Below, in pieces: positions 6,101 to 28,900 of a stretch of 58,555 bases of DNA (position 1 is the stretch's first letter; every line of letters begins with the position of its first letter). The position numbers and the translations under genes were made by a program. The notes under the pieces are model-generated. The model was not told where the DNA came from. It saw nothing but the letters and a program-made list of their open reading frames with translations, and made no database searches. The DNA is from Seison nebaliae (taxonomy: Eukaryota): the NCBI GenBank assembly GCA_023231475.1, contig JALJEE010003272.1, positions 1 through 58,555 of the forward strand, written 5' to 3'.

Positions 6101-6805
6101 AATAATCATTTGATAAACGATGGAAATGACGTGGCAAATGACATTAGAGATGATGGTCAACTTCCTCAGAACGACAATATCGCTGGTGATGGTAACATGA
6201 TAATTAATGAAGAAATTATCATGGACAATGAAGGAAATGATGATTTAAATGATAATTTGAGAAATCACATAAATGACGGTGGGGAAGACGATATCATGGA
6301 GTTCGATGATGATGTTATTCTAGACAATCAAAATGTTGAACCAAACGGTAATGACATCATCAATTATCAGGATGATATCCGACATGATTTTATGGAAGAT
6401 AACGGTAATAACATCATCAATCATCAGGATGATATCCGACATGATTTTATGGAAGAAAACGATAATGATATTATTAACCATCAGGATGATATCGAACATG
6501 ATAATATGGAAGAAAACGATAATGATATCGAACCTGATGATAATTTAAATAACCGTGATATTGTTGTGGAAGATGAAATCAACAATAACATCAATAACGA
6601 AAATGTTAACGAAAATGATAATGGAAATGATAATGGAAATGATAATGAAAATATATCAGCATCATCAGAAAGACAGCATCCTGCCAAAGTGTTCAGTGTT
6701 GAAGAAATATTGACGATCGTTGCCATGCAATTTCCACAATATGTCCGGTTAATTTTCGATGAGAATGAAAAGAAAGAAATAAAAAAAACGTCGAAAGAGA
6801 TCTGA
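3170..6805 (+). CDS. Leucine-rich-repeat protein, PRAME/LRRC14-like, ~1195 aa; exons 3170-3302 and 3351-6805
   Basis: Removing a 48-nt GTT..CAG intron (3303-3350, contains an in-frame stop) joins ATG 3170 to the 3476-6805 ORF. LRR motifs: LTSLNLSRCNL, LRCLDLSENRI, LEYLDLSENNL, LRSLILDNV. N-terminal PKKNLQNLCFDVL is BC-box-like, and IPSKILVKLLMVIF...FWYFPTLIL resembles PRAME LPRELFPPLFMAAF...AWPFTCLPL. Confidence 0.65.
4301..4600 (+). repeat. Coding minisatellite, about ten 30-bp units (10-aa consensus IENNGNLPST)
   Basis: attgaaaa(t)aatggaaatttaccatcaaca-like units recur with 30-nt period inside the LRR gene. Confidence 0.9.
6344..6530 (+). repeat. Coding minisatellite, about three 60-bp units (20-aa NDIINHQDDIRHDFMEENDN-like)
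   Basis: atcaggatgatatc(c/g)..catgat recurs with 60-nt period in the Asn/Asp-rich tail of the LRR gene. Confidence 0.85.
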
Positions 6806-6806
6806 T

Positions 6807-7652
6807 TTAATTTGGAAATAATTTTTTCAAATTCTCCTCAAATGTCCACAACAAAAATAATCGTTCTTTTATTTCAACACTTTCTTTCTTCATCAACCGA
6901 TCAATTTGTTCGTTTAATAACCATTTCAATTCATCGACGAACATTAAATTATTTGATCGATATAACTCCTCCAATAATCCATCCCATTTTTTAACGATTT
7001 TTCCTTCATCTTTTTCCTTATAAAATTCGCTCATATAAAAACGTAACAAATCGAACGCCGTTTCATGCACATGAACTTTATATTGCTTATTCGTCTTCAT
7101 CCGAATGAATAGTTCCTTTTCTAATAAAGAATTTTCACATTTCTCTTCTTCTTCGTTCTCTTCCACATTTTTTTCAATTTCTTGTTGTCGAATTTTCAAT
7201 TGACGACGTTTCCAATAGTTGATGATGAGATAATTCAAAGCTTCATAACAAGCGTCTTTACATTGGATGAATGAAGGTAAAGAAGATGAATGTGTCACAT
7301 CATGACGTAAATTTGTGAAATATTTCGGTAGATTCAATTTGACGATCGAAGTTCTGATACTCGGTCGATTTCTTTCTAGTTGTAATGGCTCCACCATAAT
7401 ATTGACAAATTTCGAAATAGACAAAGCATATGATGCATGTGCGCCGATATTATGAATTTGTGAATCAGATTCGTCTTTTGATGACGGATCATTTAAAATG
7501 GACGATAATAAAACGATGGTGGCGAGTATGGACGTATCTAAATTTTCATCAATTCCTTCCAATTCCTTCAGTTGATAATAAGCTCTCCAATAATCATCTC
7601 GATCACCTTTCAATAAATTTGTACAAATATTTTCTAATTTATCATCAAACAT
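6807..7652 (-). CDS. LAS1: LAS1-like rRNA-processing (HEPN) endonuclease, short form
   Basis: YALSISKFVNIMVE...KLNLPKYFTNLRHDVTHSSSLPS...ALNYLIINYW matches the Las1 domain, with its RHxxTH motif intact. Likely ATG at 7652. Confidence 0.85.
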   Translation of the reverse strand: MFDDKLENICTNLLKGDRDDYWRAYYQLKELEGIDENLDTSILATIVLLSSILNDPSSKDESDSQIHNIGAHASYALSISKFVNIMVEPLQLERNRPSIRTSIVKLNLPKYFTNLRHDVTHSSSLPSFIQCKDACYEALNYLIINYWKRRQLKIRQQEIEKNVEENEEEEKCENSLLEKELFIRMKTNKQYKVHVHETAFDLLRFYMSEFYKEKDEGKIVKKWDGLLEELYRSNNLMFVDELKWLLNEQIDRLMKKESVEIKERLFLLWTFEENLKKLFPN

Positions 7653-7796
7653 TCCAATAGACCGATAAAATATATTGTCTAACAATTTGTAAAAATTGAG
7701 AAATAAAAAATTGATTTCTATGGAAAAAAAAAGATTCACTGAATTTTCAATTTATTAATCGAATTTTATCGATAAATTATATAGGAAAAAATATTT

Positions 7797-9703
7797 TTAA
7801 TGTGCTGCTCGTTTTCTGATACTTTTCTAATAAAATGAGAATAAATTGAGGAAAAATTTCGAAATAATTTAAAAGAAACTTTTCGGCTGATTTCACTTCG
7901 ATTATCCATATCGGTATCATCCGGTTGATGTGTATCATTATTGGAGAAACGGGAAACGCTACTGTTAGTACTGGTAAGTCGAGTTCGAATTCCAGAGCAG
8001 ATAGAATTAGTTCCCGAGAGTCCGATACCGTCATTAGGCAAAGATGGTTTCGGTAACGGTTTTGCAGTGAGTGTTAAACTTTCTAATTTTGATGAAGAAT
8101 TCATGAAGAAATTGAAAATTTTCGAAATATTTCTCGAAAGTGCGTCATTATCATTCAACAGATTCTTTGATTGACAAACATTTCTCATTTCCTTTATATC
8201 TTTCTTCAACGCGTCAACAATTAACTTGAGATCATTCATGAGATTGATATCCGATCTCAATGTGTTGTATCGAATACATATGTCTTCATTCCACATACTT
8301 GGTTGGAATGTGGTTGATGTGAGAGAAGTCATTGATGATGGTTGAACAATCATTCGATGAAGATTCGACATGACTTGGTCGAGTGAACGATTCCGTTTAT
8401 TCGATAATGAACTACTGACAATTTTACATCGTAACGATCTAAATGTGACTTCATGAGTCAATTCAACAATTTTGATTGGTGGTGTTTTAATCATGAGTTG
8501 GAAGAGATTAGCAGACATGTCATTCGATTTCGTTTTCTTCTCAATATAATTCGATATATCCACCGCTCTCTGAAGTAGACTAGAACAATCGGGATTCGAA
8601 CTCAAATATGAAGTGGAGAATAAAGAAGATAATATAGATAATAATGATGGTAATTGAACAGTTAATTCATTGGAATGTTCATTTTTTTGTTTCTTCTCCA
8701 TTATTAAACCGGTGGTTGGAATGATGTTGGAATTGAGTGAATTGGCATCGCGTAATTTATGTTCGACAACTCGTGCCTTCTCATCTTGTTTCTTTCGCTG
8801 ATTATTTATGAGAGCGAGATTCTGTATAATCTCTTCTTCTTCTTTCACTTCCTTCATCGTTCTGGTAGAGAGAAGATGTAATTGTTCACGTCGTTTTCTT
8901 TCATGATTTCCATCAAATCGATAATTCCTAAATAAATGAGACACATCAATTATATTGGGATGTTCATTCAATTTATCACTTCGTCTTAATGGATCGCTTT
9001 TCACTTTATTCCGAATATTCTTTATCGCCAAATCGATATTATTCGAACTGGATTCATAAAATTTCGCATAGAATGACATAAAAGAATAAAACATTTCTTT
9101 AATCTCGATAATATCCTTCTTCCCATAATCTCTCTCATTCCAACGATCTGTCACTACTAGAAATTTAAAATCAAAATCGTACACCAATTCAATCAAATAT
9201 TTCAATTGATTGAATGAAACATTTCCAAATTTCCCATTCAATTTAATCCAATGGTCCACGATCTTCTCCGTTATTTCTGGTACTTTCCCTTTCACGTTAC
9301 ATCGTACAAACGGATATATTCTCTTCTCAATCTCTTTCGACTCCTCATTATTTTGTCGATGCCAATGAAATAATTTCAAGTTATCGGAACGAGCTTGATT
9401 AACGAATGGTTCCCATTTCCATTCAACCTTCGCCTGTGAATTCCCATCGTTCAATCGACGAACTTTTGTATAATATGACGCATTATTTCTCATTAACTTC
9501 TTCATTGGATTTATCGAGAAATAATCAAGAGATCCATTATCATAATCCGCTTTCTCCTCATCTTTCAACAACGCCCATATCTCCTTTGGAATATGTTTCG
9601 GTTTCTTTATTCGATTCGACGTTCTTCCTTTCGTCGATTGCGTTCGATCAGTAGTTGATGAAGAGATTGATAAAATATCTTTCACATCTGAAGTCGATGC
9701 CAT
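7797..9703 (-). CDS. DMAP1: DNA methyltransferase 1-associated protein 1 (Swc4/Eaf2 homolog), ~617 aa; intron 7827-7879
   Basis: Motifs SDVKDIL, KKPKHIPKEIWALL, WKWEPFVNQARSDNLKLFHW, YPFVRCN, SANT-like FDFKFLVVTDRW and FDGNHERKRREQL. Removing a 53-nt GTT..TAG intron gives the basic C-terminus SRKKSIRKRAAH*. Confidence 0.93.
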
Positions 9704-9757
9704 TTTCTATTTGAATTAAGTATAAATTTTAGATGAGAACCGTTAAATTTTTTCATT

Positions 9758-9763
9758 AAAAAA
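9758..9763 (-). terminator. Pol III terminator (T6)
   Basis: TTTTTT on the minus strand directly after the U6atac 3' hairpin. Confidence 0.75.
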
Positions 9764-9851
9764 TTGTGTTCCCAATGCTGTGCGGGCATCGGGAGAAGGA
9801 AGTCCGTCCTTGTCAAGGGGGCTGCTAACTATCTCTCCTTCCTTCGAATTC
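9758..9851 (-). ncRNA. RNU6ATAC: U6atac minor-spliceosomal snRNA (compact, ~90-95 nt)
   Basis: The minus strand reads AAGGAGAGATAGTTAGCAGCCCCCTTGACAAGGACGGA, against the human U6atac core (from memory) AAGGAGAGAAGGTTAGCACTCCCCTTGACAAGGATGGA. It is followed by a CCCGATGC/GCATTGGG hairpin and a T6 run. It is a GC-rich island in AT-rich DNA. The exact 5' end is inferred from TATA spacing. Confidence 0.92.
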
Positions 9852-9875
9852 TTAAATTCGATTCAATAAACTTAC

Positions 9876-9883
9876 TTATATAA
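9876..9883 (-). promoter_or_regulatory. TATA box of a type-3 (U6-like) Pol III promoter
   Basis: TTATATAA lies about 30 nt upstream of the inferred U6atac start G (9851). Confidence 0.65.
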
Positions 9884-10261
9884 GACTTCCTAACGAACAT
9901 ACAAAATTAACGAATTACAATAAATGCAATAACGGAAATGTGTGACTTATTAATGCGATATTGAAAAGATCCGCCCTATTCCTTCCTCCTAATTTTTTTT
10001 TTGCGCTTCCGAAAAAAATTTTGTGAAATTAAAATGAACAAAATATTTGGAATTTCAAAAAATTATGAGCCAAAAATTTTAAAATATAAATTTGAAATTT
10101 GAATTTTATTAATTTTATCCAATCTTATTAATCTTTTTTTGAATATTTATTATTCGCTTAATTTCTTATAAACATACAAAAGCCAATGTCACATTGAGAG
10201 GTACATATTAAAAAAGTGAAAGAAATTTTTTTGTGTTCATCCTCGTTTTGGTTGGGAAGAA

Positions 10262-13201
10262 ATGGGCTTACCAGAACAATATATGTTTCAAGGGAAGCAA
10301 CTGATCCAATATCGGGTGGTTGAGTTGCAGAAGATGTTGAAGAGGTTCGCCATAAAATCGAAGAACAAGAAGAAGGCTGAATTGATTCGTCTAATATACG
10401 AAGTTTGAATTTATTCGATTTTCATTCAATTCAATTTTCTTTTAGTATCTACTCGATCAAGAGAAAACTGATGAGGTTCATTCATTATTTCCATTATCAT
10501 TAATTTTGACATTTTATTATTAAATTAGGTGAAAAGTTCAGATTCGACGGAAAAGAAACGAATGGAAGAGATTTCTTTTAGTTCTTTGAAGGATGAGTCA
10601 TCGATTTTAGTGGAGGAAGGGGAGGAATGTGTGAGTGAATCGAGAGATGCTGTTATGCAAAGTGATCATTCCGAGTTAGAGAAGAAGTCACTTGAAGATA
10701 GTAAATCGGGTAATAATGATGTTGCTAATCTACAGAATAATTCTTCACTTTTTCTTAGTACAATTAATTCGACAGATTCCTTATCGAATCCATCAATTCC
10801 AACTCTCTCCATAAATGATGACGAGATCATAATTGATAAAACGGAATCGTCTCAATTGGTTAATGTAATCAAATCGACAGATGATAAGAACGAAGAAACT
10901 GAGAATATTTCTCTTCAACATACATCAGAAGAAAATGAAACAGAATTTGTTTCTTCCCAACAAAAATCAGAAGAGAATGAAAATAATTCTTGTCAAGAAA
11001 AATGTGAAAAAATTGAAAATAATTCTCCTCAACAACAATCAGAAGAAACGAAAAATAAATCTCCTCAACAACAATCAGAAGAAAATATTTCTCCTCAACA
11101 GAAATCGAAAGAAACAGAAAATGATTTGGCTGAACAGAAAGAGCAGGAAATTGATATGGAACCATCATCGACCGATCAAATTGATGAGAATGTCTTGACA
11201 ATAAAAGAAAATGAAATTGACATTTCTCAAAGTGAAATTGTGGAAACAAAAGAAATTCCTTCAGAATCGAATGAGAAAATAGAAGAAATAAAAATTGGAG
11301 ATAATGTGATGGAAACTAAGGATAAGATGGATGGAGAGATGTCGAAGGAAGATGATGGTAAACAATTATCGAAGATTGTTGAAAGTTCTAAAACGACGAA
11401 ACTCGTTGACGGTTACCGGATAACGGTGACGGAATTGAACGAACATAAACCGTTAAATGTGATCAGTCGTCAATCAGATTTATCAGTTTGTGTCATTTAA
11501 TTTGTTTAAATTTATATTCATTTTTAAAGATTGTTGAGGAGGAAGAAGAGAAGGAGAAGGAGTTGATGGATATCCGAATAAATCGAAAGAGGAAATGGAG
11601 AAATAGAGATTTCATCGAAGAACCGTTACACTCATTCAAATTACCTGCAAATACGGCAAATGTTTTCGATTATTTAAAAATTTTTTAATTTAAAATTTTT
11701 CGTTTTTTAAGCAATTAATCAAATCTTCACCAACAATTACCGTTTCAGGATTGGAAGATTCTTTCATCAATATAACTGGAAAGAAATTGGAGAAGAATGA
11801 GGAAATTACTCCTCAAATAGATATGGTCGTCGCTCCCCCACCACCATCCTCCAAAGATCCCACACCATTCCTTTATATTCGGAAATTGACACGTCCATTC
11901 ACGAAATATGGTCTGATTAATATGTTGAAGAATTTCGGTGAAATAGTTCCACTTGTTCATCATGAAGAAATTTGGTTAGATGGAATTAAATCGAAATGTT
12001 TTGTTAAATATAGAAATGTCGAGAATGCGATTAAGGCGAGAAACTCCTTACATTCTTCCCGATGGCCGTTAACTAACGATAAACGACTAATCGTCGAATT
12101 TTCAAGTATGGAAGAAGTTCCGTTTTTTTTTCCTTCCAAAACCATCAATTTGTATTTGTAGTTGAAATTAATTGTTCTTGATGAGAGGAAATCATCGAAG
12201 AAGGATAGTTCATTGGATAGGTTATTTGGACTTCATTTGGGTATAGATAAACCGTTTGTAATTTTCTTAAATTCTATTTGTTTTTTTCATTAGATTTTTC
12301 AGTATGTTCAACAGTAACGAATCTTTCGAACTTATTCAACGCACCACTACCAGAGAAGAGAAGTTTTTGATTTTTTGAAAATTTAAAAAATAAATTTTTC
12401 TCAGAATCATTAATGATGACAAACCATCGAAATCAAACGAGTCAATTGAACATGATGAAAATGAGGAAAAGAAGATCGAAGAAAATTATGAAGATGAAAA
12501 GAAAAGTCTTTCAAATTGTGAAGAGAAATGTGAAAAGTCATCAGAAAAAGAACAGAAAACGTTAATTTTTCCGAAATTTAAAATTTAAAAATTTGAAAAT
12601 TTGTTTCAGAAAAAAAATCGTTTTAGATAATCGGTTCATTCCGACGAATGCATCACCAATTATTTATTGGACACAATTAACGGAGGATGAGATTCATAAG
12701 AGAAAATTGAAAATAGAGAAGGAGACACAATTGATGAAGGACCGTGCGAATAATCGAGCACCACGACAAAAGGAATTTAAAAATTTTCGAAATCGACCGA
12801 GATATTCTCCGAAACGTTATTCTCATCGACATGATCCTTATCCATCTCGTCGAAATGATTATGGACGATATCGTAATCGTTATAGAGATTATAAAGATCG
12901 ATATCATTATCGTCATGAAGATTATGGTGGAAGACGACCATATCGTACTCATGTAGCAGACAGAAGATCACCGAAACATCGTCCTCGATCCGTTTCATCC
13001 TCCTCATCTTCCAGTGCATCGAGTCGTTCATCCTCTGGATCAGGATCGTCATCAGCAACCGATTCGTATTCGAGTCGTTCGGGTTCGTCGTCATCGAATC
13101 ATTCGTCGATAAAAAATCGGAAAAAGAAGAAATTGACCACACCATCTCCACCACCAAAAAAGAACAAAACTGGAGCATCAAATGTTTTATGGAACTACTG
13201 A
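10262..13201 (+). CDS. ACIN1: Acinus (ASAP/EJC component), ~857 aa, 9 exons; introns 10403-10445, 10476-10528, 11486-11529, 11662-11711, 12117-12161, 12254-12293, 12363-12404, 12561-12609
   Basis: N-terminal SAP-like domain (QGKQLIQYRVVELQKMLKR...KKAELIRLI), RKRKW, Acinus RRM (YIRKLTRPFT...WLDGIKSKCFVKY...RWPLTNDKRLIVEF), RSB motif (LDNRFIPTNASPIIYWTQLT) and RS-rich tail. The exon lengths sum to 2574 nt with no internal stop. Confidence 0.93.
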
Positions 13202-13520
13202 ATTATTCGGAATATTTTTACGTGTGCGAGAAAAGAGAGAGATGAGAGAGCAGAGAGAACGAGTGATGGTATTTCATTATTCTGTAATTTTCTTGAGTAG
13301 ATGGTTCGTGCTCAGTTAGAATATGTTTTTCTTTTTGCAAATAAAAAAAAATTTCTTATATCTTTTCACTTTGTTGGAAGAGGGAGGAGGAAAGTGAATT
13401 ATTAAATTCTCATTCATCCTAATCATTCTAGATTTTCGAGTACTTTTTAATTGAATTATTTCTCAACATCATTAACATCTTTTTATGATGAAATACTAAT
13501 AATTATTAAGAAAAAGTCTT

Positions 13521-13965
13521 ATGGAGAACAATGGGAAAGAAGAATTGAATAGACAAGACATGAGGAAATCTCGTTCTATTCACTTACTGGTCTATCTCGG
13601 TGTCGTTATCGTTTTCTTCATATTCATCTTCATCGGTTCAAATTTCATTCAATTATTCAAAATAATTATTCATTCATCAATTTCAGTATTGAAAATGTTT
13701 CATTTTGGAAATGGGAAAAATTTAGAGAATAAAAATTTCAAATATTGTAACAACGATTGTTCGTCCGATCAAATTTGTTTCAGTTTTCATAATAAAGATT
13801 GCGTTGGAGAGAAATGTCTCTATTTATATCGATGCGTTCATGAATATAAGACGTATGAGGAATGTAAAGTTCCCATTTCTTCTTTCATAATTACTTCATA
13901 TTTTTTAGGATATCTGTCAATCGCTTTGTATTGAATATGAAAATAAATTTTACTGTAATCAATAA
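13521..13965 (+). CDS. Small orphan single-pass (type II-like) membrane protein with a 10-Cys C-terminal domain, ~117 aa; introns 13636-13686 and 13869-13908
   Basis: Hydrophobic segment LLVYLGVVIVFFIFIFIVL, then CNNDCSSDQIC...KDCVGEKC...RC...ECKDICQSLC...FYCNQ* after removing two GTT..AG introns. Confidence 0.65.
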
Positions 13966-14280
13966 ACTTATTGAAATAAGCTCCTTTATAAATTAAATAA
14001 ATTATTTATTAGAATTATTTTTTTTTCTTATTTTACAATATCAAATAATTACCCTAAAAAATGTTAATTGATTCATGATCGATTAATTTTAAAATTAATT
14101 AAAAACTTTCCACACATTGAAATTGGCAAATTGATAAATACAAATGCAGAAATATTAATAAAAAGAAAATATTTTAAAGGTTATTCATAAAAGGAAAAAA
14201 TTGATGAAATAATTTCCATCGTTAACGCCATAATAATAATTATTATTTAATATAATAAGAAAGAAATAAAATTATGATGT

Positions 14281-14754
14281 TTATCCTGATTCCTTCACCT
14301 TGCAAAAAACGGCATTCGCAACATTGTCCATATCACGTCGACCATATTTGGAGAGGACACGTCCCTTCTTGATCTTTTTCACCATCTTCAATTTCTCTAA
14401 AATTATTAAAGATTTCCTGCAAATATTTCCCGATGCCAATTGGAAGTGACTTGGACTGTTACCGAAATTCTTCTTTCCACCGAAGATCTTTTGCATATCT
14501 CTAGTGGAAGCCGGATTTCTCAAATAGACGTGACGAGCAACAGCAGCAACTCGTTTCCAGAACCAATCGGGATCCATTGGCGCCAATTCTTTGTTGGTAC
14601 CCGTTTTCACGTAACATATCCATTTGGGTTCTAAACTCTCTTCTTTCGGATGATCGTTGGCATACGTATCACGACGATCTTTCAACAATTGAGCGAATGC
14701 ATCAAGGAATAATGTCGGTTCGACATCTTTCACACTAACTGGTCTGCGAGACAT
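14281..14754 (-). CDS. RPS19: 40S ribosomal protein S19 (eS19)
   Basis: Motifs VSVKDV, YVKTGTNKELAPMDPDWFWKRVAAVARHVYLR, FGGKKNFGNSPSHF and GRRDMDNVA. ATG at 14754 is preceded by a TTTCATTAG acceptor. Confidence 0.97.
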   Translation of the reverse strand: MSRRPVSVKDVEPTLFLDAFAQLLKDRRDTYANDHPKEESLEPKWICYVKTGTNKELAPMDPDWFWKRVAAVARHVYLRNPASTRDMQKIFGGKKNFGNSPSHFQLASGNICRKSLIILEKLKMVKKIKKGRVLSKYGRRDMDNVANAVFCKVKESG

Positions 14755-16999
14755 ATCTAATGAAATAAATTTCCTCAGTTTAAGATTACATAAAAAATTC
14801 AGTAGGAAATGATACAAAATATTACAAAGATGATTGTTGTTGTTTAGAGAGAAATGCGTGTGTTTGAAAATTGATATGATAAAAGCTTAAAATTTGAATT
14901 TTAAAATTATTCTTGAAAATTTAAAAAATTCTTTGAAATTCTTCTTTGGGAATTATTCTTAGAAATAATTAAATTTCCTATTTGTTTATGATCAAATCGA
15001 AGCATTTTCCATTCGCGCTATATTCAATCGATTGAAAGAGAAGTCGATATAAACAATCTCGTTGGAATATTGTAAAATTGACTTTCTTCTCATTTTATTT
15101 GAGTAGAAATAAATTAATGTTTCTTCTTCTCTAACTTGTGGACTAAATTACTCGGTCGCGAAACATTTTTAATTGAACAACTTTTTTCCATGCTCTTCCC
15201 TTACGAATAAATAAAAGAATTCTCGTAATTTTAGGAGGTATGAAGATTAAATGTTTGTCCTTCTAAAAGAAATCTAAATATTCATGGAATGAATTTTACT
15301 TCTTTTTATCATTAGTCATCTTACGAATATGTTAATTTTATCTCATATCTCCATCACAACATATATTTACTAATAGGCAATTTATTATGTGTGATACATA
15401 TATGTGACCATGTAATCTTGTAGTATGGAAATAATTCGTTAATTTTCTACGATTCTTTCCTTTTGATGAAAAGAATCGATTTGGAACAGTCGACAATGGA
15501 ATAAAGTCAGATAGTTGAGGAAAAATAAATTGAATGTTGTCATAAAGTAAAACTTTCTCTCATGATATTTAATCATGCTGATGATGATGATATGGTAATG
15601 ATGATTCGTCCGATCATTGAAGTGTTAAAAGGATTATGGGAAAGGAATTTGAAACGATTCCACACTTCCCGAGAAAGAGAATTGATTTTATTGATGTTAT
15701 TGTGTAAGTCAATCGAGTAAGCTAAGTGGATGTGGATGTTAAAGGAGTAGAGGAAATTAATTAGATCTCGCATATATAGACCATTCGTCGATTTGACTCT
15801 TCCTCTCCCTCCTTTTCGTTCATTAGAGATTTAATTATTTCACATTTGTTTCGTGCATTCTCTCATAATTCGGCTTTGAATGGATGTTGGGGAGGAAGAA
15901 AGATAAGTAATTAGGTATGCAGGTAAGTAGATAGATGATGGGAAGAGATAAGATGAAATAGTATGCAGAAAACGAAGTACCATCACAATATTGATGTAAA
16001 AAAGATGATCATACTCCTACCAACCAGAATGATGGACATAAATATATGAAAATCGAAATTCTGTAATGAAATTGAATAAGTTTATGAATAAAAAATGATG
16101 AATTTTATTTATGTGCTAATACATTTAAAAAAGATCGAGGTCTTTCACTCCATAAGGCAAACTATCAACTTTTTATGAGTAGACAAACCATCAACAACAT
16201 TTCAATCTATTCTCTTTTAACTACTTGTATTAACTAACAACATTAGAAGTATCATTGGATCGTGATGGAAAGAGAAGGAATAAAATATTATATATTCTTT
16301 TCTACCGTTTTATCAGATATTTTTATGGTTTTGTGTCATGTGAATTTCTTGTCCGTTCAGTTTATTTGAGCGGGCGGGAAGGATAGAATCTAAACCAAAT
16401 GGATGTCAAATAATAGAAATTTACATTAATAAGTTCAACTATCATTTCTCATCATCATATAATGGAACACCATACATATGACGAGAATCATCATTTCTCC
16501 TCAATTGCTGATGTTTATTCTTCTAGAATGAAAGTCTAGAAGGAATTTATCTTTCTCTTTAACATTTCTTCTTTTCCCTTATTAACATTAGTATAAATTG
16601 ATGTGCGACAAATGTGAGATTAACATCGTCATCGTCATTGATGATGACCGTCAGTCTATTATTATAAGTTGCTTGAAGAAATGGATTGACATAGAATTAT
16701 TTTTCAGGCTAGAATTCTGTCATACATGTCGTTTATTGATTATTGAGTCGCTGAAAGAATTGTCGATGTTCTTGTCTTGTTGAGTCATGATAATTATTGT
16801 TGATATGTCGGAAATGAGAGTGATGACCTTGTCGTAAACATAAATCAAAATTTTTATAAAAATCCTCTTGTTTTACATTTCAGATAAATTTCCTCTTCTT
16901 TTTTACATTCTTTCAACAATTCATCATCACCATCACCATCAGCTAATGAATCTGCTCAAACAATCATCTATCTCATAATTTGTGAGGAATATATTTGTC

Positions 17000-19900
17000 A
17001 TGACGAAGAAGAATCTAATTTCAACTCTTAATAGTGAGACTTTGTCGTTGACATATCTGAGGAAATTGTTCTATGAATATCAACATTTGTCGACGGCAGA
17101 GAAAGCGGAAGATGGAAATGATAATATTCTCGAAATGTTACCATTATTTCAACGTGCATTCACATCACCACAACAAACTCGATTACATGACATTCTTGAT
17201 AAGTTTCCTAATGTGGTGGAATTCGCTTCAGTTATCGGGAAGTTTTTCGTTGAAGAAATTCGTCGATTTGGAAAGAATCAGACGACATTAAATGCTGCTA
17301 TTTCCATCGCCCAATATTTGGAGCGAGGTAATTTGGAATGTGCATATTTATTTTCCATCGAAAATATCGAAAAAGTTGACTTGTCCATTCTATCGAATCG
17401 ATCGACATTGAGAGAATATCGTGGACATCTTCTCTTGTCCACATTGATGAGATTATCAACTGGACCAGTAGCGGTAATCGAAGCGATGACACGAACAGCC
17501 TTACCATCGACATTGGTGAAATGTATTTACATTTTCTATGATCTACCCACCATATCTAAAGAAGAGAAAGATGACGAAATGAAATTAATTGAACGTCGAA
17601 TTTTATTACATTCCACATTCTCCCAATTAATAATTCGATTAGCTGAATTCTCATTTGTCAGTGAAGAATTAGTACGTCGAGATGATTTCGCTCTTTTATT
17701 ATCTGTCTTATGTTCCTGGTGTTCCATTTCCAATACCAGTTGGAAGATGTTGACATCGAATATTTTGAATATTATTGCTAAATCGTCATTGACACAGAAT
17801 GTAGTGAATAATATTAAACAACGGAAATGTATGTCTAATTGTATTTCCGCTATCAATATGATGATTGATGTGATTATAAAAAATTATGAAATATTAAAAG
17901 ATGAATCGAATGAAATTATCGATAAAAATAAATGTCTCATTTTCAATCAGACAACCACTACCACGACCAATCCGTTAAATTCTCAACTTTCCATTCCAAA
18001 TAATGAGAAGAAAGATGTGGTTGGATTAATCAGAAATTTAAATGATGCTATTGTCGATGTATTAGCATTCCTGACTAATTGTTCACTTCAATCGAGAGAA
18101 CCGTTAAATAGTTTCCAATTAGCCGATGGTTATGATATGATAGTTCGATGTATGTTGACATATGAAATGTTTCTCATCGATTCATCATCAACGATCATTT
18201 CGGGAGAAATCAGATCAGAAATAAATTTATCAATTCAAAATATTGTGGATAAAATTAAAGAGTTATTACTCACCGGTTATATGGAACAGAAATTGAGGAA
18301 TATCGAAGCGATAATCGCTGACGAATCATCGTTATTGATCGGTTTCGTTCTTCCCTCCAAATCGAAAGGAAAAGGATTTACAATTCGAAATTTGAATGTT
18401 TATGTTATCCTTCACGAATGTCTTCAACATTCGAGATCGTCGGAAATTACTGTGAAATTTATCGATCTCATATTTTATCTTTTTGAATTGGATATTTATA
18501 ATTATCTTTTGACATTCAAATCATTTCCGTTAGCTGCCATTATCGAGAAATTATATGAACATTCAGTGAGTACTCAATTGAGAATTTTGAGTTTATTGGA
18601 ATGGTTTATATTTTATACGAAATTAATCGTGAAAAAAGAATTAACATCATTAACCATTGTCATGAAATCGTTAGTGATGAATGATCAGAATGAACCGATT
18701 AATTTATCCATCGATGAACGGAATGAATGTCTTTTGAGAATTATTACAAGTTTGAATAAGATCCTCCGATTTAACACACCCGTTTTCCGAGAAGTTTTCC
18801 GTCAAATCGGTCTCGTCGATATCATCATAACGATTCTCAAGAAGAATATCGCAACACTCCGTAATGACGTTAGTGATGATTCGGAAGAGTATTCGGGAAA
18901 ACATCGAGAAATTGCCACGTCACTTTTCCAATTTATTCAAACAATTTTATCTTCCAATTCCAGTAATATGACAAGTGGATCAATTCCACCAAATATCCAT
19001 CATCAATCAACATCATCAATTAGTAGTTGTTCGAGTATTCCGTCGAAAGAGACAAAATCTCCATATGATAACGCTCAATTAGTTGCTTCACTTATGAGGG
19101 ACTTAGGCTTATCTCGAGTTATTCATAATCTCATTCCATATATTCATTTCCGTCAACAATCACTTCATCTTATCATACAATTAATTTTCAACGGAATTCA
19201 AATCACTCAACAAACCACTCACAACAAATTAGATCGACGTCTTAATCAACAAAATAATTCATGTCCAGCCGAAGATGATTTAGCCACATTATTGGGCACT
19301 TTATTACTACTCCAACCCAAATCAGAAGTGAAGGAGAATGACGAGAACATTTATCGATCATTACCAATATCGTTCGACGATTTCATAGAATTCAAATTAG
19401 ATATTTTAACTGCTCTACTTTATTTGTTGAGAGAGTCACATAAAATTCGATTAATTTTCAGGAAAATTGGCGGTTTCGTTTATATGATTTCGTTGTTAGC
19501 TCAATTACAAAATTGTTTTTCTTTCCGCCATGAATGGAAGGCAAATGAAGAGAATAATTGGAGAGATATCTGCTTCTATCGACGATTACTCCTCCTCCAA
19601 CGTATCATTTATACGATTGGGACAGTTCTCAAATTAGAACCGGGTTCGTCCCGTCATTTCAATTCGGAAGTCGGATGGAATTTAGCGTTCTTACAAGCGA
19701 TGAAATTGAATGAAACTCTTGTCGATTCATCGACAAATGTGGATACATTAATTAATTATGGTCCAATTGATAACCATTGTGATGGTTCGGAAGAAGTTGA
19801 GGATTGTCGTTCCAAATTGAATAGTGTTACAATGATGTTGGTGATGATGTATGGTATGGAGAAGACGGAGAATATTTTATCGAATGCCGAGAAGGAATCA

Positions 19901-22900
19901 GATATCCTTAATAAAATGTTCGCTAATCCAATTCTCAGTCTCAATGAAATATCAATGACGGTACAACAATATTATTATCCGACATATCAATTATTATATG
20001 AATGGTTCTTCACTTGTCATATCGATGTTATTATTCATCATCGAGAGAAATTAAAGAAGAATATTTTGGATTCTTGTTGTTCGAAACGACAAGGCAAATT
20101 TTCGAGCTTAGCACAACAAACTTTAGATTTGTTGAAATTGAGAAAATGTTTCCGAGCGAATGAAACCGACAAAATATTATTAGATGAATTAGGAAATGAT
20201 GAGGAATTATTCGAATATTTCTTCAACTCTTATAGACAATGTTATTCATCCATATATTTATTGAGATGTATTTATGACACGATATTCGATCATCGTATCG
20301 ATTTAATTTATTTTATTAATCAGAAAAATCTCCAAACTACCGAACAATTATATTCTACTTATGAATTATTATTCTCATCGATTATCCAATATTCAATGAA
20401 TTGTCAAGAGATTACCATCATCAATAATGAGATGATGGTACATTGTAATATCGTGGAATTTCTCCTTCAATCGCTGTCGTTGATGCCTAATTATTCACTT
20501 CGACATTTCCTCATCGAACACATTCTCCAATTATTCATGTTCGGAGAGAAATATTCGTTACAATTAAACGAAAAGAGTTTCCTCGTTCAAAACATGAGAT
20601 GTGAAGTAAACGTTCAACAAGCTGCATTTTCCTCTCTTACTCAGACTTTAGTGCACAACGTGATGAGTTGTGGGAAAGTGGTGGAAAAGAATTGGATAGG
20701 CAAATTAAATTATCGTAATTTTTATTTAAAAAAATCCAATTCCGATATATATGATGGTCATAATTCATTGAAATTTTATGAATTATTAATTAAACAATTT
20801 TTAAAATTAATTAAAGATTTCCTTCCATTTTATTGTCTACCAAATGATTTGACACAATTATTCCGATTATTACCATTACCAAACATCTTCCCTTATAATC
20901 GTCTTCAAAATCTCGTTAATTTATTTACTGAAAATAATTCTTCAATTTATCAACATAATCAACTCGTTCCCTATGATAACAATAATAACAACAATACTAA
21001 TTCTTTATCGACTATTCATGGATGTTGTACATCATACTCATCTTATATTGATTTCGATTTATCGTTAGAAGGTTATTCATGTATCATTCTACCATCAATC
21101 GCTCCTCAAACCATCAATGATCATAATTCAAATAATTCAACGATTAATGCTATGAGTCTGGCTAAGGGACGTGTTGCTAATATTATATCGTTAACAAAAT
21201 ATCAATCATCGACAGATAATCTGATTAATGGAGGAGTTGGTAGTGGAGAACGTGTATTCCCTCCAAAAGATGGAATGACATTCAGTACATGGATTTCCGT
21301 TAAACGATGGTGTTCTGCTAATACACATCCAGTTCGTTTATTATCTTTGATACGATCGGTGGGAAATTTCTCAACGAAAAGTATGAAATGTTTTTCAATT
21401 CTATTAACGAATCAAGGAAAATGTATTATAATCAGTACTCAAGAAATGAACAATAATAATGATCCTGTTAAATGTGGAATCGAATCATCCAATTCAAATT
21501 CGACTGATAATGCTGATGGAATTACTTGTATCGCTCTACCATCATATATCACTGATGTCATATTATCGAAAGGAAATTGGGTTCATTTCGTGGTGACATT
21601 AGCTCGACGTACTTCCTCCGTTTTATCGAAACAACAAACTAATCTTTTCATTTATATCAATGGCATGTTCATCGCTTCACGTCGATTACCATACATCTCT
21701 TTAAATATCGGTGGTACGAATACACCATCATCTGGTATTGGTCTAGTTCCAAACACGTTAGGCAGTGCCGTTAGTGGAATGTTGAATGTAGCAATTGGTG
21801 ATACTCAACAAACATTAGGCACTTCCATCCCAACAACAACAACAACAATAAATGAATCGTTAGGAACAACAACAACAACAACAACAACAAATTCAAATTA
21901 TAGAAATCAATCGACAATTTCATTAACGCCTAATACCATCGTACAGATTTATGCGGTTATTGGAACAGCAAGAAGTCAAAGACAATTGTCCGATTTACAT
22001 TGGCGTCAAGGTGGATGTTTGTTGGTGGAGGAGTGTCTACAATTAGATCAAATTTTCATTCTTTATGCTCTCGGTCCAAAATATATCGGTAATTTTCAAA
22101 ATGTTCCAATCGATCTTCATATCGCTCTCTCGTTAACCTTATCTCAAAATAGTTCGATGGAGAATCAATTCAATTCATCAGACGATTTCCAATTAACCGA
22201 TTGTCAATTAAACAAACAACAACATTCGTATCAACAGAAAATGCAATTGAAGAAAATCCTCCAAAATACTCGACTCGTTCAAGCCATTCGTCAAAATAAT
22301 CCGATCGATTCAATCCGACAATTATGTGGACAATTGATTAATGAAGATAAAATCACTTTCTCACTCCATACCACCGCTTCCTGGGATGTTTCAATATCGA
22401 AAATCCGAAAATGTTTCAATCGAAATGATGCCCGTTTCATAGCGAGACAATTGAACATCAGTTGCCATGACAACTTAGTCCCAATAAAAATTATTTATAA
22501 TGCAGCCATGCATTTGAGTGGAGCGGCACGTAGTGTTGGTGGTTTTCTTATCGGACATTTGGGCGTTCGCCTAATTCAGCCATGGTCCTCCTCCATCAGT
22601 TTTACCCAGATTGATGGTTCTCACATTCTTTTAGCGTCGATCGCTATGACGAAAAATCGATCTGAACTTTATAGCGCTTACAAAATTCTTGTTCAATCCA
22701 TTGGAAAAAATAAGAAATTATCAGACGAATTCGAAGAGAATAATCTTTATTCTATTCTCGGTACTCTACTTCATAAGAAGAAGAATTTGTTAACTCCACA
22801 AGCATTCAATCAAACTATCCCGCTGGTTTTCAATACGAACGATTATAACGGAATTATTTACGAAGCGAAATTCCATCCATTAAATGAACAATCATCATCA

Positions 22901-25900
22901 TCATCATCATCATCATCTTCTTCTTCACTTCCACAAAACTTATCGACAAATGACAATGATAATAATTGTAGTTTAGGTTTATATCAGATGAATATTATTC
23001 GTTCATTGAAAGCTTTCCATAATTTGATTTCCGCCATCTATATTTGGCAAGATACGATCGATGGAACGGAGAAACTTTTATATGATCATCTCTCCGAAAC
23101 GATGGTAATGATATCCACCTCAAGAAATAATATAATAAATTATAAATTTCTCAAAAATTTATATTCGGTTGATCTGTCGAAGAAGTTGTTGAATCGACTC
23201 GATTTCCTTCCCAACATTTTAGATCATCACAATTATTTCATGTCCACTTGTGAAATTTTTATTCCGTTAATTTATGTATTAAGAAATTTAATTTTATTCG
23301 AATATGACGTTTTTCGAGAGGAGGCTATTAATCTCATTAATAAATCAGGACGACATATCATTCATTTGGCACGAGAGTCCAATACCAATCATCAACATGA
23401 CGATGAAGTATTTATTAGTTGGACGAGTGAAATCATTTCAATTATCTTATCATCAAATGATATTCAATCATCATTTACTCATTTTATCGATTATATCACA
23501 TTCCTCAATTCTCTACATCCCAACATTCCACATCTCGATGAGAATTGTCAAAATGATTTGAATCAAATATTAAGAATATCGACTATCGATTATAAAAAAT
23601 ATATTTCCACTAATTCCACTCCCAACGGAATGGATGATGATGAGAAATATTTCGATACGAATCCATTCGCTAATCGTCATCAATCCAATTCATCATCAAC
23701 ATATATTAATGAGAATGATTATATTCCATCATCATCATCCATCGGTATAATTACTTCACGTCGTATTCAAAATATTCTCAAATCGGAAAATTTGAATTCA
23801 TCAATTTCATCGAATCATTTGGAAAACGAAGAAAAATTATCATCATCATCATCATCATCATCATCATCGTCATCGTCATCGTTTCCAGATATTAAAGATA
23901 GTTCGATCAATGACGAATCATCATTATCGATGAAGAATGAATTGATAAAGAATTTATTTAATCTCATTCTCATTGATGAGAAGAATGAGGATCATATTTA
24001 TTATTTTATCGGTTATCGAATTTTCTTGAGGAATCTTTTACTGAATTATCTTCTGGAAATATTTGAACATTCGTCATTCATCGAATTTACAGAAATGATC
24101 TTTCTCACTTTTGGATTCCAATGGCTACTCACTTTCCTCCATCCATCAATTCATGAATCAACTCGTTCTAGAATTCTTTTATTCTTTTCAAATCTCCTCC
24201 CATACAATATCAAATTATGTCACTTGTTCTTCAATGAACCGATTCTTTTCAATCGTTCATTCTCTTCATCATCACTCACCACATCATCCACCAGTTCCTC
24301 TACCACCAATCCTACCAATCAATCGACAACAACCTCCAATAATTCAGGTAATCAATCGACAACATCGATCGGTAATCGAACTTTCAAATATCGGAATGGC
24401 GAATTCCTTTTTCGTCAACGATGGTTATCCACACAGCATCTACCCGTTCTCTATTCGGCTTTGTCATCAGTACGAACGTTCGACGGTAAACCGTTCACCA
24501 TCGCACTTCAACGATCGAATATCACACCGTTCGAATATGTGAGTTATTTGTGGCGAATAAATTCAAATAATTTAATTTTGTATCTCCCACTAATTTCCTT
24601 ATCATTTGTACATTCGAAATCATCAGAATTTTATTCGATTTGTGCACAATCCAAATATTTCTTCTTATCTAATCGAACCTTCTTAAACATTCTCAGTGAG
24701 TCATTCAATTCCGAACAATCCGATTGGAAGATCGATCGAATTAAACAAACTCTCAAAATTAGGAAATCTTTGAAAAAATTACAAAACGTTCGACAAGTCA
24801 TGAGTAAATCATTCAAATCTTATCTTTCATATGAGCAACATAATCGATATGGACAATATTCGAAAAATAATCAAAAAAATACAAATAATCAGAAATCGAT
24901 GAATGAACGTGGAACTTCGTTCCATTTGTCGAATGAGAAAGAGAAGAAACAAAAGAAGATTTTCACCGATTCAAATTTATTTCGTTTGTTAAGTGGAAAT
25001 ATTATTTGTGGGAGTTTCACATCAGCCGCTATTCAATTATTGGAATCAAATGAGAATTGTAATCGAATGAAATCACCTAATGTTACAAATCAAAATTGTC
25101 AGTCAAATCTCGTCAATAATGATTATGGAGATTTGTGGAAATTATTTGAATCAGGTAAATTATATAAGAAATTAAATCATACTGATATCTTCTCATATTC
25201 TTTAAAATTCGATTCGGATTATCGAGATAATTTCTCTTTAAATAATTCCATTGTTGGAATAAATATTCGACCGATTATTTTCCTTTGGAAAATCATTAGA
25301 GAATTATTAGGGAAAGTTCAGACTATTCATCTTCATTCCAATCCTTCACTTTTACTACCATCCAATGATGATAATGAACAAATGAATGAAACGAGAACTT
25401 TAAAGAAAGATAATGAAAAGAATGAATCTGAATTGGAATGTATTCGAGTTCTACTCGTTTCTTTCATGTCGTTATTCTCCGAATTATATCATCGGAAAAT
25501 TGGAGGATTTCCAATTCATTGTTTAATCGATCGACAATTATTAACTGCCATTATCTCCTCCTTATCATCATCATCATCATCATCATCAACAACACAACAA
25601 TCATCATCGATATCATCATCATCATCATCATCATTAAAAGAACAGGAATATAATCAACAACAAGAAAATGAGAAAAAATTATCAAACCATCAGAAAACCA
25701 TCAATGATGATAGTGAGAGTCGGAGTGATAGTGACATCAGTATTGATAGTAATGAATTAGATGAGAAATTAGAGGAGATGGACAATCGTCGAAAACAAAT
25801 GGTGGCAGCAATCGAATCGAATATCGTCGAAAATGAAGAGACGCAATCCATTCTAACAACAACAACAACAACAATAACGAATGAGATAAATCCAATATTT

Positions 25901-28900
25901 CATTCAATTAAAATAAATATCATAAATTTTTTAAGAAATCTTATCACTGATAATATGGCGATAACTGCTGGTGACATATCGACAATTCAACGATGTTCAA
26001 ATGCGTCAGAAGGTTTGAAAAAATCATCAAAAGAATTTATGAATCTCATCGCTCCATTTGATGCCATCGATCGATTACATGATGATAATTATTCCATCTA
26101 TTTACAGAATGATCAATCTGGCAATAATTTAACGACAAACTCCACAATCAATTTAACATCATCCACTTCCACATCACAACCATCATCATCATCATCATCC
26201 ATCAATCAGATATCGTCAAATAATTACGAATATCAATCACTTTATTTCGAACATTTCCAATTGTATGTAACAGCCTCACAATTATTAACGAAGAATCCAA
26301 TTTTCACTCTCAATAACATCATCTCATTGACAAATGATATTTTCTTCAATTCTCTTACCATTTCAACAACAACAACAACAACAACGTCATCGAATAATCG
26401 TATTAATTTATTGACTCAATTATATGATTCTGTTATCGATCGATTGTTTGAGACGGAGGCAGTAACAGCGCCATTACTTTCTGGTTTATTTAATCAACAT
26501 ACCGTCACATCGTTAAGAGCACAAGGATGTATCGCTTCGTTCGTTTGTCGATGGATTGATAGTGTGTGGTTGAAGGAATATGGTCGTGATTGTCGTGAGA
26601 TCTTCGATATTTGTGTGAGATTTATGAAACAGTTTAAAAACGGTTTACAATTATTACCATCAAACGGAAATAATAATCTTTCGTCTTCCGTTTCAACATC
26701 ATCTTCATCATCACACAACGATTTATTGAGATGTGATTGTAGTCAAAAACAATTGATTGTAGATGTTCCTTCCATCAATCGATCTTTTCTCAATTCATTA
26801 CATCGAAGTGTTTTATATATGTTGTCTCGACCGATTAATTCCAGTCAAGAATGTCATATTCGATTGGATAGTCTCATGAGATTATCCTCAAACAAATCTT
26901 TCTTTCTCGATCGTTCATCAACTCATTCGCCAACTGAAAATGAATTTCTCGTTTGTTTAACTTATTGTCTCTTGAGATTGACTTCATCGGAAACTGGAAA
27001 GAATTTCAATTCACGTGAAACTCAATATCGGACAGCATATAATGCCTTAATAATTGAATGTAATCGATTATGGCAACAAATTTATTATTCGAAAAAAAAT
27101 GAATTACAAGACGCATTCAAAATTAATTTTGCCCAAATTTCAATTTCACCATCAAAATTAGGAAATGACGAACTCAATTCATTCAACAAACAATTGAGCA
27201 CTACCGTCATTCTGGGAACGACTTTGAATGATCGTTGTCCATTATTAGATGATATTCGATCCGAAATTTCCATCATCGTTAACGAAACATGGAATACTTT
27301 CATATCATCTACCAATAAACAATTTTTGAATATCTCTCAAAATTTTATGGGCAGTGGAATTTTCTCCACAACACACATCGCTCAACGTCTTCAAAAAGTG
27401 ATGTCTGGCGTTCGAATTTGGAGTTCATCCACATCATCATCAGCTGCCACATCAATAGTAGCAACAACAACATCAACAACATCATCGAATAATTTAATGA
27501 ATAATGGTGGAACATCGACATCATCATCATCAGTATTTCTCCAACAACAAAATTCGATATTTGCTGATGGTTTAGAAACGATCGATGGGAATATTCTTAT
27601 AGAGAATAATAATTTGAATAATAATTTGAAAAAACATCATATTAATCGATTTGATGATATTCAGATGAGAAAAGATCAGGATAATGAGAATCTTCTTCAT
27701 TTATTTCATTCTTTCATTCTTCCCATCGTCAGTTCTCGTCTCAGACATGATGCTATCCAATTGAGACAATTGATGAAGAATGAACAGATTAATGGATGGA
27801 AACGATGGAAATTATTCGTTGAATATAATTTGATTCGTGAACGAGGAATTTGGGGCGATCAATTACCAGACATCCATCAGAAATATTATCTCGATTCAAC
27901 CGAATCAGGAGGAAATCGTAAACGTCGACGATTATTGCCGAATCCCACCTTTTATGACGTTTATCCGCCACTCGCTCTCGATACACCGATGGAAGCCATT
28001 CTCAATCTTCCCGTTAATTCGAGATCTGCTTATTCAAAAAAATTTAATATGCCTACCAGTTTCGATAGTGTCTTCCATTATTATCTTCGAAAATATTCGG
28101 ATAAAACACAAGATTTATTCATAAGCAATGAAGGAACGAAAACGATAGAGAATCATCCAAATTCCGTTTTAACGGAAATTAAAAAAGAAGAAATTGATGA
28201 AAGAAAAGAAGAAATTGATGAAGGAAAAGAAGAAATTGATGAAGGAAAAGAAGTTAAGTCGAATAACGAGAATATTGATGAAGTACAAGATGTGGAGAGT
28301 ATAATGAAATCGGCAGTTGCGGTTCTTGGTGTCACAACGTCTAACACTTTAACATCCTTAAATGAGATTAATGAGGAGAAGAATTCGAATAGTGATGAAA
28401 TTGTAAATGAAGAGACATCGACATTAGACGAGAAAAGGAAAGAGAATGAGAAATTGTTTGAAAAATTGAAAAATGAGAATGAAACGTCGGAAGAGAAAGA
28501 TGTGGATAAACAACGACAAATGATGACGAAGAATACGAAAATTTCACGTTCGAAAAAAATGAATGGAAAATATGGGAATTATTTCAATCAGAATTCCATT
28601 CTTCGAGAATTAATGGTAAACGATTCCGTTCAATTAATTTATCGTACCAGTCGAGTTTATGGATTGGATGCTTTTGATGGAATATTTATTATTGGACGAT
28701 CTTACATCTACGTCATTGACGGATATACAATCGTTAATTATGATAAAATTAATGAGGAAGAAGAAGAACAACAACAACAATCATCTAAATCGATAGTGTC
28801 ATCATCTCAGCAGAATGTGGAGGAGCAGAATGAATTTGCTCAAGAGACGGGCGATGTTGCCGATATTGGATATATGGAGAATTATGAACCGATAATGCCT

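What the first reader, a model, noticed from the sequence alone, without database searches (positions are those of the whole stretch)
9758..9851. Unannotated, shortened U6atac snRNA gene: the minor spliceosome survives in a highly compacted genome
Seen: AAGGAGAG box, GTTAGC (catalytic AGC triad), ISL core CCTTGACAAGG, a single 3' hairpin, TATA at about -30 and a T6 terminator. Total is ~90-95 nt versus ~125 nt in human. Known: U6atac is the catalytic RNA of the U12-type spliceosome, which many small-genome lineages have lost. Inference: the intact promoter, core and terminator suggest a functional gene, although no clear U12-type intron (RTATCCTT donor plus TCCTTAAC branch) was found in this window.
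Basis: partly seen in the sequence, partly recalled or inferred. Interest (0 to 1): 0.8.

Follow-up and report, generated by a model that had tools for sequence, protein, structure and literature searches.

The report
Short U6atac minor-spliceosome RNA gene
This is a gene for U6atac, the catalytic RNA of the minor splicing machine, in a fast-evolving animal; it is short but no shorter than other known copies, and it is likely functional, so the find is mostly ordinary apart from a predicted rewiring of its 5' end.

Summary
Confirmed: a U6atac snRNA gene on the minus strand, 9851 to 9758 (94 nt). Rfam RF00619 scores it 54.3 bits (gathering 33; E 2e-10). It has a TATA box at -31 and a T6 terminator, and DNA contigs of two studies match it without a difference. 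The shortness is not special: it ties the shortest of 38 metagenome homologues, the Drosophila hit in a published table spans 98 nt, and the missing distal hairpin is dispensable in human cells. Small-genome animals that keep minor splicing are already on record. What is unusual is the 5' end: five positions conserved in at least 35 of 37 homologues differ, and the usual 5'/3' stem is predicted to be replaced by an 8-bp helix (nt 7-14 with 50-57). The catalytic stem-loop has lost one pair and gained another. Function is inferred, not shown: no genome or RNA run was available, so U11, U12, U4atac, minor proteins and expression are untested. No U12-type intron lies in the window, but under 0.1 is expected. 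The host is an unplaced long-branch animal. Verdict: new member of a known family; modest interest.

The parts
9758..9851 (-). U6atac snRNA gene, 94 nt; +1 inferred at G9851
   Evidence: Rfam RF00619 54.3 bits, E 2e-10; +1 lies 11 nt before the AAGGAGAG box, where most homologues begin their conserved 5' motif, and 31 nt after the start of the TATA box
9876..9882 (-). TATA box (TATATAA) at -31 to -25, Pol III type-3 promoter element
   Evidence: a TATA-like hexamer starts at -34 to -28 in 22 of 36 homologous loci with 45 nt of upstream DNA
9897..9917 (-). possible proximal sequence element (unproven)
   Evidence: ATTC lies about the distance from the TATA box described for insect U6/U6atac promoters, but the following CAA of the fly element is absent; its recurrence at 15432 is not above chance
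9833..9840 (-). AAGGAGAG box (nt 12-19); G14/G15 would pair with C5/C6 of a U12-type donor
   Evidence: pairing shown in the mammalian suppressor assay (PMC4980772)
9823..9832 (-). U12 helix I segment with the catalytic AGC triad (nt 20-29; triad 9826-9824)
   Evidence: G23-A29 invariant in alignment A1 (inside the search pattern); U21 found in 1 and A22 in 5 of 37 homologues
9801..9823 (-). internal stem-loop (nt 29-51): 5 conserved pairs intact, A45/C46 bulge, pair 31-49 lost (C.A), pair 30-50 gained (G-C)
   Evidence: C at position 46 occurs in 33 of 41 distinct homologues
9838..9845 (-). 5' arm (nt 7-14) of the predicted re-registered 8-bp helix
9795..9802 (-). 3' arm (nt 50-57) of that helix, at the place where L043 and L059 carry the arm that pairs with nt 1-7
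   Evidence: 27 of 5000 shuffles of the 3' region give such a helix
9770..9794 (-). single 3' hairpin, 9 bp with a 7-nt loop ending in GCACA; no distal 65K/RBM41-binding hairpin
   Evidence: same 9-bp stem and 7-nt NNGCACA loop in L043 and L059
9758..9763 (-). T6 Pol III terminator
7766..9703 (-). DMAP1 gene; its start codon lies 54 nt downstream of the terminator
   Evidence: Pfam SANT_DAMP1_like; residue 2 aligns with residue 2 of DMAP1 in PDB 8qr1_F; distance
10262..13201 (+). Acinus-like gene (RRM and RSB motif), divergent, starting 410 nt upstream of the snRNA +1
   Evidence: the name Acinus is inferred from the domain set

Best explanation
This is a U6atac snRNA gene that is likely transcribed by RNA polymerase III into a 94-nt RNA and likely still serves as the catalytic RNA of a reduced minor (U12-type) spliceosome acting on a few introns elsewhere in the genome. 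Shown: family identity, promoter and terminator positions, intact box, triad and five stem-loop pairs. Inferred from the human system: Pol III starts at G9851 and stops in T6; the RNA is held by U4atac in the tri-snRNP; on activation G14/G15 of the AAGGA box pair with the minor donor, nt 20-29 pair with the U12 5' end, and the stem-loop with its 45/46 bulge forms the active site. The trimmed 3' part keeps one stem with a GCA-containing loop and has dropped the central and distal hairpins. Predicted from folding only: in the free RNA nt 7-14 pair with nt 50-57 in place of the usual stem of nt 1-7, covering the first three bases of the box until partners open it.
For: Rfam 54.3 bits against gathering 33, above the published thresholds 39.23 (PMC2396436) and 22.9 (PMC11347168). 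TATA at -31, box at +12 and T6 agree with homologues. Stem-loop pairs 34-44, 35-43, 36-42, 33-47 and 32-48 are kept. The lost pair 31-49 is flanked by a new G30-C50 pair seen in 0 of 37 homologues, which looks compensatory. This core persists in a lineage whose protein branches are about 10 times the median (2.1 vs 0.16; 1.38 vs 0.13). DNA contigs span the gene and its neighbours with 0 differences at ordinary depth (X4 6464-11984; X1 6464-19900). Deleting the distal hairpin leaves human U6atac active (PMC4980772). The Drosophila hit is 98 nt in a species with all four minor snRNAs and 16 minor introns (PMC11347168 tables S4, S7).
Against: No expression data and no view of U11, U12, U4atac or the minor proteins; none of those RNAs lies in the window. 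Outside the search pattern the gene matches only 9 of 16 columns conserved at 90% or more; it misses 2, 3, 6, 7, 11, 30 and 31. Pair 31-49 is formed in 37 of 37 homologues but is C.A here. Decay of a recently released gene could look like this. A lone minor snRNA without conserved minor introns is on record (two copepods lacking 75% of the set, PMC10639083). The inferred major donors are degenerate, which has been suggested to ease minor-to-major conversion.
Confidence: 0.75

Rival explanations
1. A recent relic: the minor introns were lost or converted, and the gene is decaying while its promoter region is partly protected by lying in the shared DMAP1/Acinus promoter interval.
For: Seven of 16 highly conserved columns outside the search pattern differ; pair 31-49 is broken; species with a lone minor snRNA are known; the gene lies 54 nt from the DMAP1 start.
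Against: The changes cluster at the 5' end and lower stem and make new pairs (an 8-bp helix, 27 of 5000 shuffles; G30-C50) rather than scattering. Box, triad, bulge, TATA and terminator are all intact in a fast-evolving lineage.
Confidence: 0.15
2. A remodelled or hybrid spliceosome: this U6atac works with changed partners (for example U4 in place of U4atac, no CENATAC), or helps to splice part of the short GTT-donor introns.
For: The 5' end and the U4atac/U12-pairing segment differ from near-invariant bases. The central stem-loop that CENATAC binds (PMC11874965) is absent by eye in alignment A1. A U4/U6atac hybrid has been proposed for other lineages (PMC11347168). Inferred donors mostly begin GTT.
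Against: The box still reads AAGGA, suited to an ordinary U12 donor and not to GTT donors. Several homologues also lack the central hairpin (L003 type, L043, L047, L059). There is no direct evidence for any changed partner.
Confidence: 0.07
3. Not U6atac: a divergent U6, a chance match, or foreign DNA in the assembly.
For: The 5' end departs from the U6atac consensus; two lower-scoring overlapping same-clan matches were left out of the table (families and places not shown).
Against: U6atac is the best family, full-length, E 2e-10. The box is AAGGAGAG and sits 11 nt from +1 with no 5' stem-loop, and a 3' hairpin is present. Single contigs join it to the flanking genes at the same depth.
Confidence: 0.03

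Closest known systems
U6atac snRNA, Rfam RF00619 (human type, about 125 nt)
   Same: AAGGAGAG box, GUUAGCA helix I segment with AGC triad, stem-loop core, Pol III TATA promoter, U-run end, 3' stem
   Different: 94 nt; no central hairpin and no distal CUACUU hairpin; 5' end changed at nt 2, 3, 6, 7, 11; pair 31-49 lost and 30-50 gained; C rather than U at 46 (common in homologues)
Short U6atac genes L059 (92 nt) and L043 (96 nt) from metagenome contigs, organisms unknown
   Same: ISL followed directly by a 5'-pairing arm, then one 9-bp stem with a 7-nt NNGCACA loop and the terminator
   Different: They keep the standard 5' end and pair nt 1-7 with nt 49-55; the window pairs nt 7-14 with nt 50-57
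Drosophila melanogaster U6atac
   Same: Similar length (98-nt hit), TATA-type Pol III promoter (PMC1761439), genome with few minor introns (16)
   Different: Sequence not compared here (not available from a call); its function is established, whereas this one's is untested
U6 snRNA (major spliceosome)
   Same: AGC triad, bulged internal stem-loop and Pol III promoter type (established knowledge, recalled)
   Different: No 5' stem-loop, a different 5' splice-site box and a 3' hairpin; Rfam prefers U6atac

Membership tests
U6atac snRNA (RF00619) | Covariance-model score above the family's gathering threshold | tested here: met
   54.3 vs 33 bits, model 1-126, E 2e-10
U6atac snRNA (RF00619) | AAGGA box near the 5' end for the U12-type 5' splice site | tested here: met
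   nt 12-16, G14/G15 at the human numbering
U6atac snRNA (RF00619) | AGC triad within the U12 helix I segment | tested here: met
   nt 26-28
U6atac snRNA (RF00619) | Internal stem-loop with 2-nt bulge | tested here: met
   5 of 6 conserved pairs kept, 31-49 mismatched, 30-50 gained; the minimum-energy fold of the naked RNA shows another hairpin here
U6atac snRNA (RF00619) | 3' stem-loop domain | tested here: met
   one 9-bp hairpin; 9 of 38 homologues also fold to a single 3' hairpin
U6atac snRNA (RF00619) | Distal 3' hairpin with the CUACUU loop for 65K/RBM41 (not required in vivo) | tested here: not met
   absent; dispensable in the mammalian assay, so not defining
U6atac snRNA (RF00619) | Conserved 5' heptamer pairing with a downstream arm (seen in most homologues) | tested here: not met
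   nt 2, 3, 6, 7 differ from bases held by 35-36 of 37 homologues; replaced by a predicted 7-14/50-57 helix
U6atac snRNA (RF00619) | Pol III type-3 promoter and T-run terminator | tested here: met
   TATA at -31, T6; PSE unproven
U6atac snRNA (RF00619) | Base pairing with the organism's own U4atac and U12 | not testable with these tools
   no genome held; neither RNA lies in the window
Working minor spliceosome | U11, U12, U4atac and minor-specific proteins present | not testable with these tools
Working minor spliceosome | U12-type introns present | tested here: inconclusive
   none in the window, where under 0.1 is expected
Working minor spliceosome | U6atac RNA expressed | not testable with these tools
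   no RNA holder listed

The most novel reading that the evidence does not exclude
The animal runs a rewired minor spliceosome. Its U6atac has swapped the near-universal 5' stem for a helix that hides the splice-site-reading box, has shed the CENATAC- and 65K-binding hairpins, and is matched by compensatory changes in U12 and U4atac (or uses U4). It would be a natural minimal U6atac, in a genome whose major introns have also shifted to GTT donors.
Probability: 0.15. Interest if true: 0.6.

Novelty: new member of a known kind. Interest (0 to 1): 0.28.

Why it matters
It adds one data point that a very fast-evolving, compact animal genome likely keeps minor splicing, and it offers a natural near-minimal U6atac. 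The recurring 9-bp stem with a GCACA loop in three short copies points to the part of the 3' domain that may matter for targeting to the minor spliceosome. The changed bases at nt 21-22 and 30-31 give a sharp test of co-evolution with U12 and U4atac. It would matter more if the rewired 5' helix or a changed partner were confirmed. Presence or absence alone may already be recorded: PMC10639083 ran RF00619 on every genome in its set, and its species list includes several small-genome animals.

Tried and rejected
Second snRNA gene behind a repeated promoter element: a 15-mer upstream of the gene (9917-9903) recurs exactly at 15432-15446, but 31% of 300 GC-matched 100-nt control stretches have an equally long repeat and no Rfam family lies there; rejected. 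C at the bulge position 46 as an oddity: found in 33 of 41 distinct homologues; rejected. Masking of the box as unique: pairing probability of nt 12-14 is 1.00 here but 0.64-0.93 in 5 of 38 homologues, so only the helix register is unusual. My scripted test for the central hairpin was too loose (it flagged 4-5-bp stems in short-type RNAs) and is not used. Expression: no RNA holder listed; X1 behaves as DNA with no joints, and nothing was laid from X6 or X7. Lineage: two single-gene trees left the window unplaced (quick tree, 60 of 120 rows, the window plus 28 of 120 hits); the RPS19 search gave only 3 fungal hits besides the window's own protein; the protein atlas did not complete. Records behind L043 and L059 are not held, so their organisms are unknown. 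Dietrich et al. 2009 on the 3' domain is not held and is cited only through PMC4980772 and PMC3584512. Among the 25 of 161 papers listed for candidate small-genome lineages none contains 'U6atac'; PMC12256650 has no spliceosome terms. The marks in figure S1 of PMC10639083 could not be read. Earlier findings of this scan: none.

Full report
OBSERVATION. A scan of the window against 4227 Rfam families gave one match at gathering level: U6atac RF00619 at 9851-9744, 54.3 bits against 33, E 2e-10, model positions 1-126. A permissive scan listed four more rows, all below gathering and none a spliceosomal RNA. The model's tail runs past the first T6; the gene most simply ends at 9763-9758, giving 94 nt. 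+1 at G9851 is supported twice: it lies 11 nt before the AAGGAGAG box, where most homologues begin their conserved 5' motif, and a TATA box starts at -31, against -34 to -28 in 22 of 36 homologous loci.

IS IT REAL DNA OF THIS ORGANISM? Five runs of two studies hold at least 98% of the sampled words. An X4 contig spans 6464-11984 and an X1 contig spans 6464-19900 with no differing letter, at the depth of neighbouring contigs; two X2 contigs meet at 9816-9845, also without differences. These runs may include the source of the assembly, so they confirm the sequence but not conservation. No RNA holder was listed and no whole genome is held.

HOST AND NEIGHBOURHOOD. The window is about 31% GC and encodes animal proteins: the CCA-adding enzyme is 37-42% identical to its 119 best listed relatives, the named ones all animals, and the WDFY3 BEACH domain is 69-76% identical to WDFY3 across animals. 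Two single-gene quick trees leave it unplaced on branches about 10 times the median. The gene sits in a 558-bp interval between two divergent start codons: DMAP1 begins 54 nt after the terminator and an Acinus-like gene 410 nt upstream of +1. So the DMAP1 promoter or 5' leader probably overlaps or abuts the snRNA gene (inference); an AG four bases before the DMAP1 ATG could be a splice acceptor.

COMPARISON WITH HOMOLOGUES. A core pattern fetched 59 loci from metagenome contigs. Four lacked an end and were dropped; 38 distinct full sequences remained. The set is biased: it was selected by a pattern made from this gene's core, many rows are close kin, and organisms are unknown. Lengths to the fourth T run from 92 to 125 nt; the window is 92, tied with L059, next to L043 at 96. 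These three share a 9-bp 3' stem with a 7-nt loop ending in GCACA, and 9 of 38 fold to a single 3' hairpin. C at the bulge position 46 is the majority state (33 of 41 distinct rows). In 37 colinear rows (L039 left out for a 1-nt insertion) pairs 34-44, 35-43, 36-42 and 33-47 are formed in 37 of 37 and 32-48 in 36 of 37; the window keeps all five. Pair 31-49 is formed in 37 of 37 but is C.A here; 30-50 is G-C here and paired in 0 of 37. On a 20-row subset the lower stem shows two pairs with changes on both sides, both from L050, 10 of 500 shuffles; this supports the register only weakly.

THE UNUSUAL PART. Positions 2, 3, 6, 7 and 11 differ from bases held by 35-36 of 37 homologues. In 37 of 38 homologues nt 1-7 are predicted mostly paired (mean probability 0.64 or more); here it is 0.16. 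Instead nt 7-14 are perfectly complementary to nt 50-57, where L043 and L059 carry the arm for nt 1-7. Such a helix arises in 27 of 5000 shuffles of the 3' region, and the whole RNA folds at z -2.4. The helix would cover A12-G14 of the box and compete with the new 30-50 pair. This rests on one sequence and on folding alone, and 5 of 38 homologues also show nt 12-14 paired at 0.64-0.93. Against function: outside the search pattern only 9 of 16 highly conserved columns match; the 25 of 25 inside it are circular.

U12-TYPE INTRONS. Seven RTATCCT sites exist, all ATATCCT: five antisense to open frames, one inside the long WDFY3 frame with no branch-point-like motif in 220 nt, one in a decayed retroelement. 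This says nothing about the genome. At the minor-intron shares tabulated for Drosophila (16 of 60,269), Sarcoptes (5 of 20,748) or Adineta (24 of 203,249) (PMC11347168 table S4; totals summed by me), roughly 20 inferred introns would hold under 0.01; at human-like shares, 0.1 or less.

WHAT IS KNOWN. PMC4980772 (parts 1-4 of 7 read): U6atac G14/G15 pair with donor C5/C6; the distal hairpin binds 65K but its deletion leaves splicing active; 3' ends of fly and Trichinella do not work in the human RNA. PMC11039992 (passages): RBM41 and 65K bind that hairpin, RBM48/ARMC7 bind the cap. PMC11874965 (passages): CENATAC binds the central stem-loop. PMC2396436 (passages): the AAGGA box and a threshold of 39.23 bits. 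PMC11347168 (passages, section 17, supplement rows): minor snRNAs in almost all metazoans; U6atac hits of 98 nt in Drosophila, 109 in Sarcoptes, 110 in Tetranychus, 121-122 in Adineta. PMC7738191 (one passage): a spliced U12 intron in a 32.5 Mb mite genome. PMC10639083 (passages, section 25, supplement names): every genome was searched with RF00619; extreme but incomplete loss in bdelloids, mites and springtails; apparent full loss in tardigrades, chironomids and two copepods. PMC1761439 (passages): insect U6atac promoters. PMC3584512 (passages): assembly pathway. That the 45/46 bulge binds catalytic metal like U80 of yeast U6 is recalled, not from a call. None of my 8 answered paper searches turned up a re-registered 5' helix in U6atac, but none was aimed at it and alignment figures were not visible.

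MECHANISM AND VERDICT. Shown: a U6atac-family gene with promoter, core and terminator in place. Inferred (0.75): it is expressed and works in a reduced minor spliceosome by the standard route. Rivals: recent relic (0.15), remodelled or hybrid machine (0.07), misassignment (0.03). The rewired 5' end is the one feature a specialist might want to see tested. New member of a known kind; interest 0.28.

Noticed in passing
window, e.g. 10403-10445, 10476-10528, 12363-12404, 12561-12609, 41815-41864, 46493-46538 (+); 43594-43531, 43464-43419, 42514-42469 (-): Inferred short (about 40-56 nt) introns mostly begin GTT rather than GTA/GTG. In a whole-window scan 11 of 13 acceptors had a GTT donor and 8 of 10 with one kind of donor were GTT, against 52% GTT among GT in low-GC stretches. 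No RNA to confirm; would predict a changed U1 5' end or relaxed donor reading.
   Followed up: partly
window 9703-10262: The whole snRNA gene and its promoter fit in a 558-bp interval between divergent DMAP1 and Acinus-like genes; an AG lies four bases before the DMAP1 ATG (possible cis- or trans-splice acceptor).
   Followed up: partly
window 16979-32131 (+): WDFY3/ALFY-like gene as a 5050-codon open frame, longer than the roughly 3500-residue homologues, with many low-complexity S/T/N insertions; two short in-frame introns seem likely near its 3' end.
   Followed up: partly
window 6807-9706 (-): DMAP1 and a Las1-like gene lie in tandem with only about 110 nt between the first open frame's stop and the next ATG.
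   Followed up: no
window about 32670-34770 and 56840-57460 (+): Decayed non-LTR retroelement-like remnants (reverse-transcriptase-like peptides with stops and frameshifts, recognised by eye; no Pfam hit for three pieces), so the window is not free of repeats.
   Followed up: no
window 57480-57645: Long imperfect inverted repeat (about 7 bp to 40 bp arms around T/A runs) next to the second retroelement remnant, seen by eye; possibly a MITE-like element.
   Followed up: no
window 35343-35412: Hairpin giving weak mir-81/MIR9563 scores far below gathering; probably a plain inverted repeat.
   Followed up: no
window 46539-56540 (+): Large polycystin-1-like gene with PKD, GPS, PLAT and channel domains and few introns.
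   Followed up: no
L043:249-344 (-), L059:290-381 (+): Two further very short U6atac genes (96 and 92 nt) with the same 9-bp stem and NNGCACA loop; organisms unknown.
   Followed up: partly
L016:20-100 (+): A U6atac 5' half embedded in telomere-like TAACCC repeats; probably a fragment or assembly artefact.
   Followed up: no
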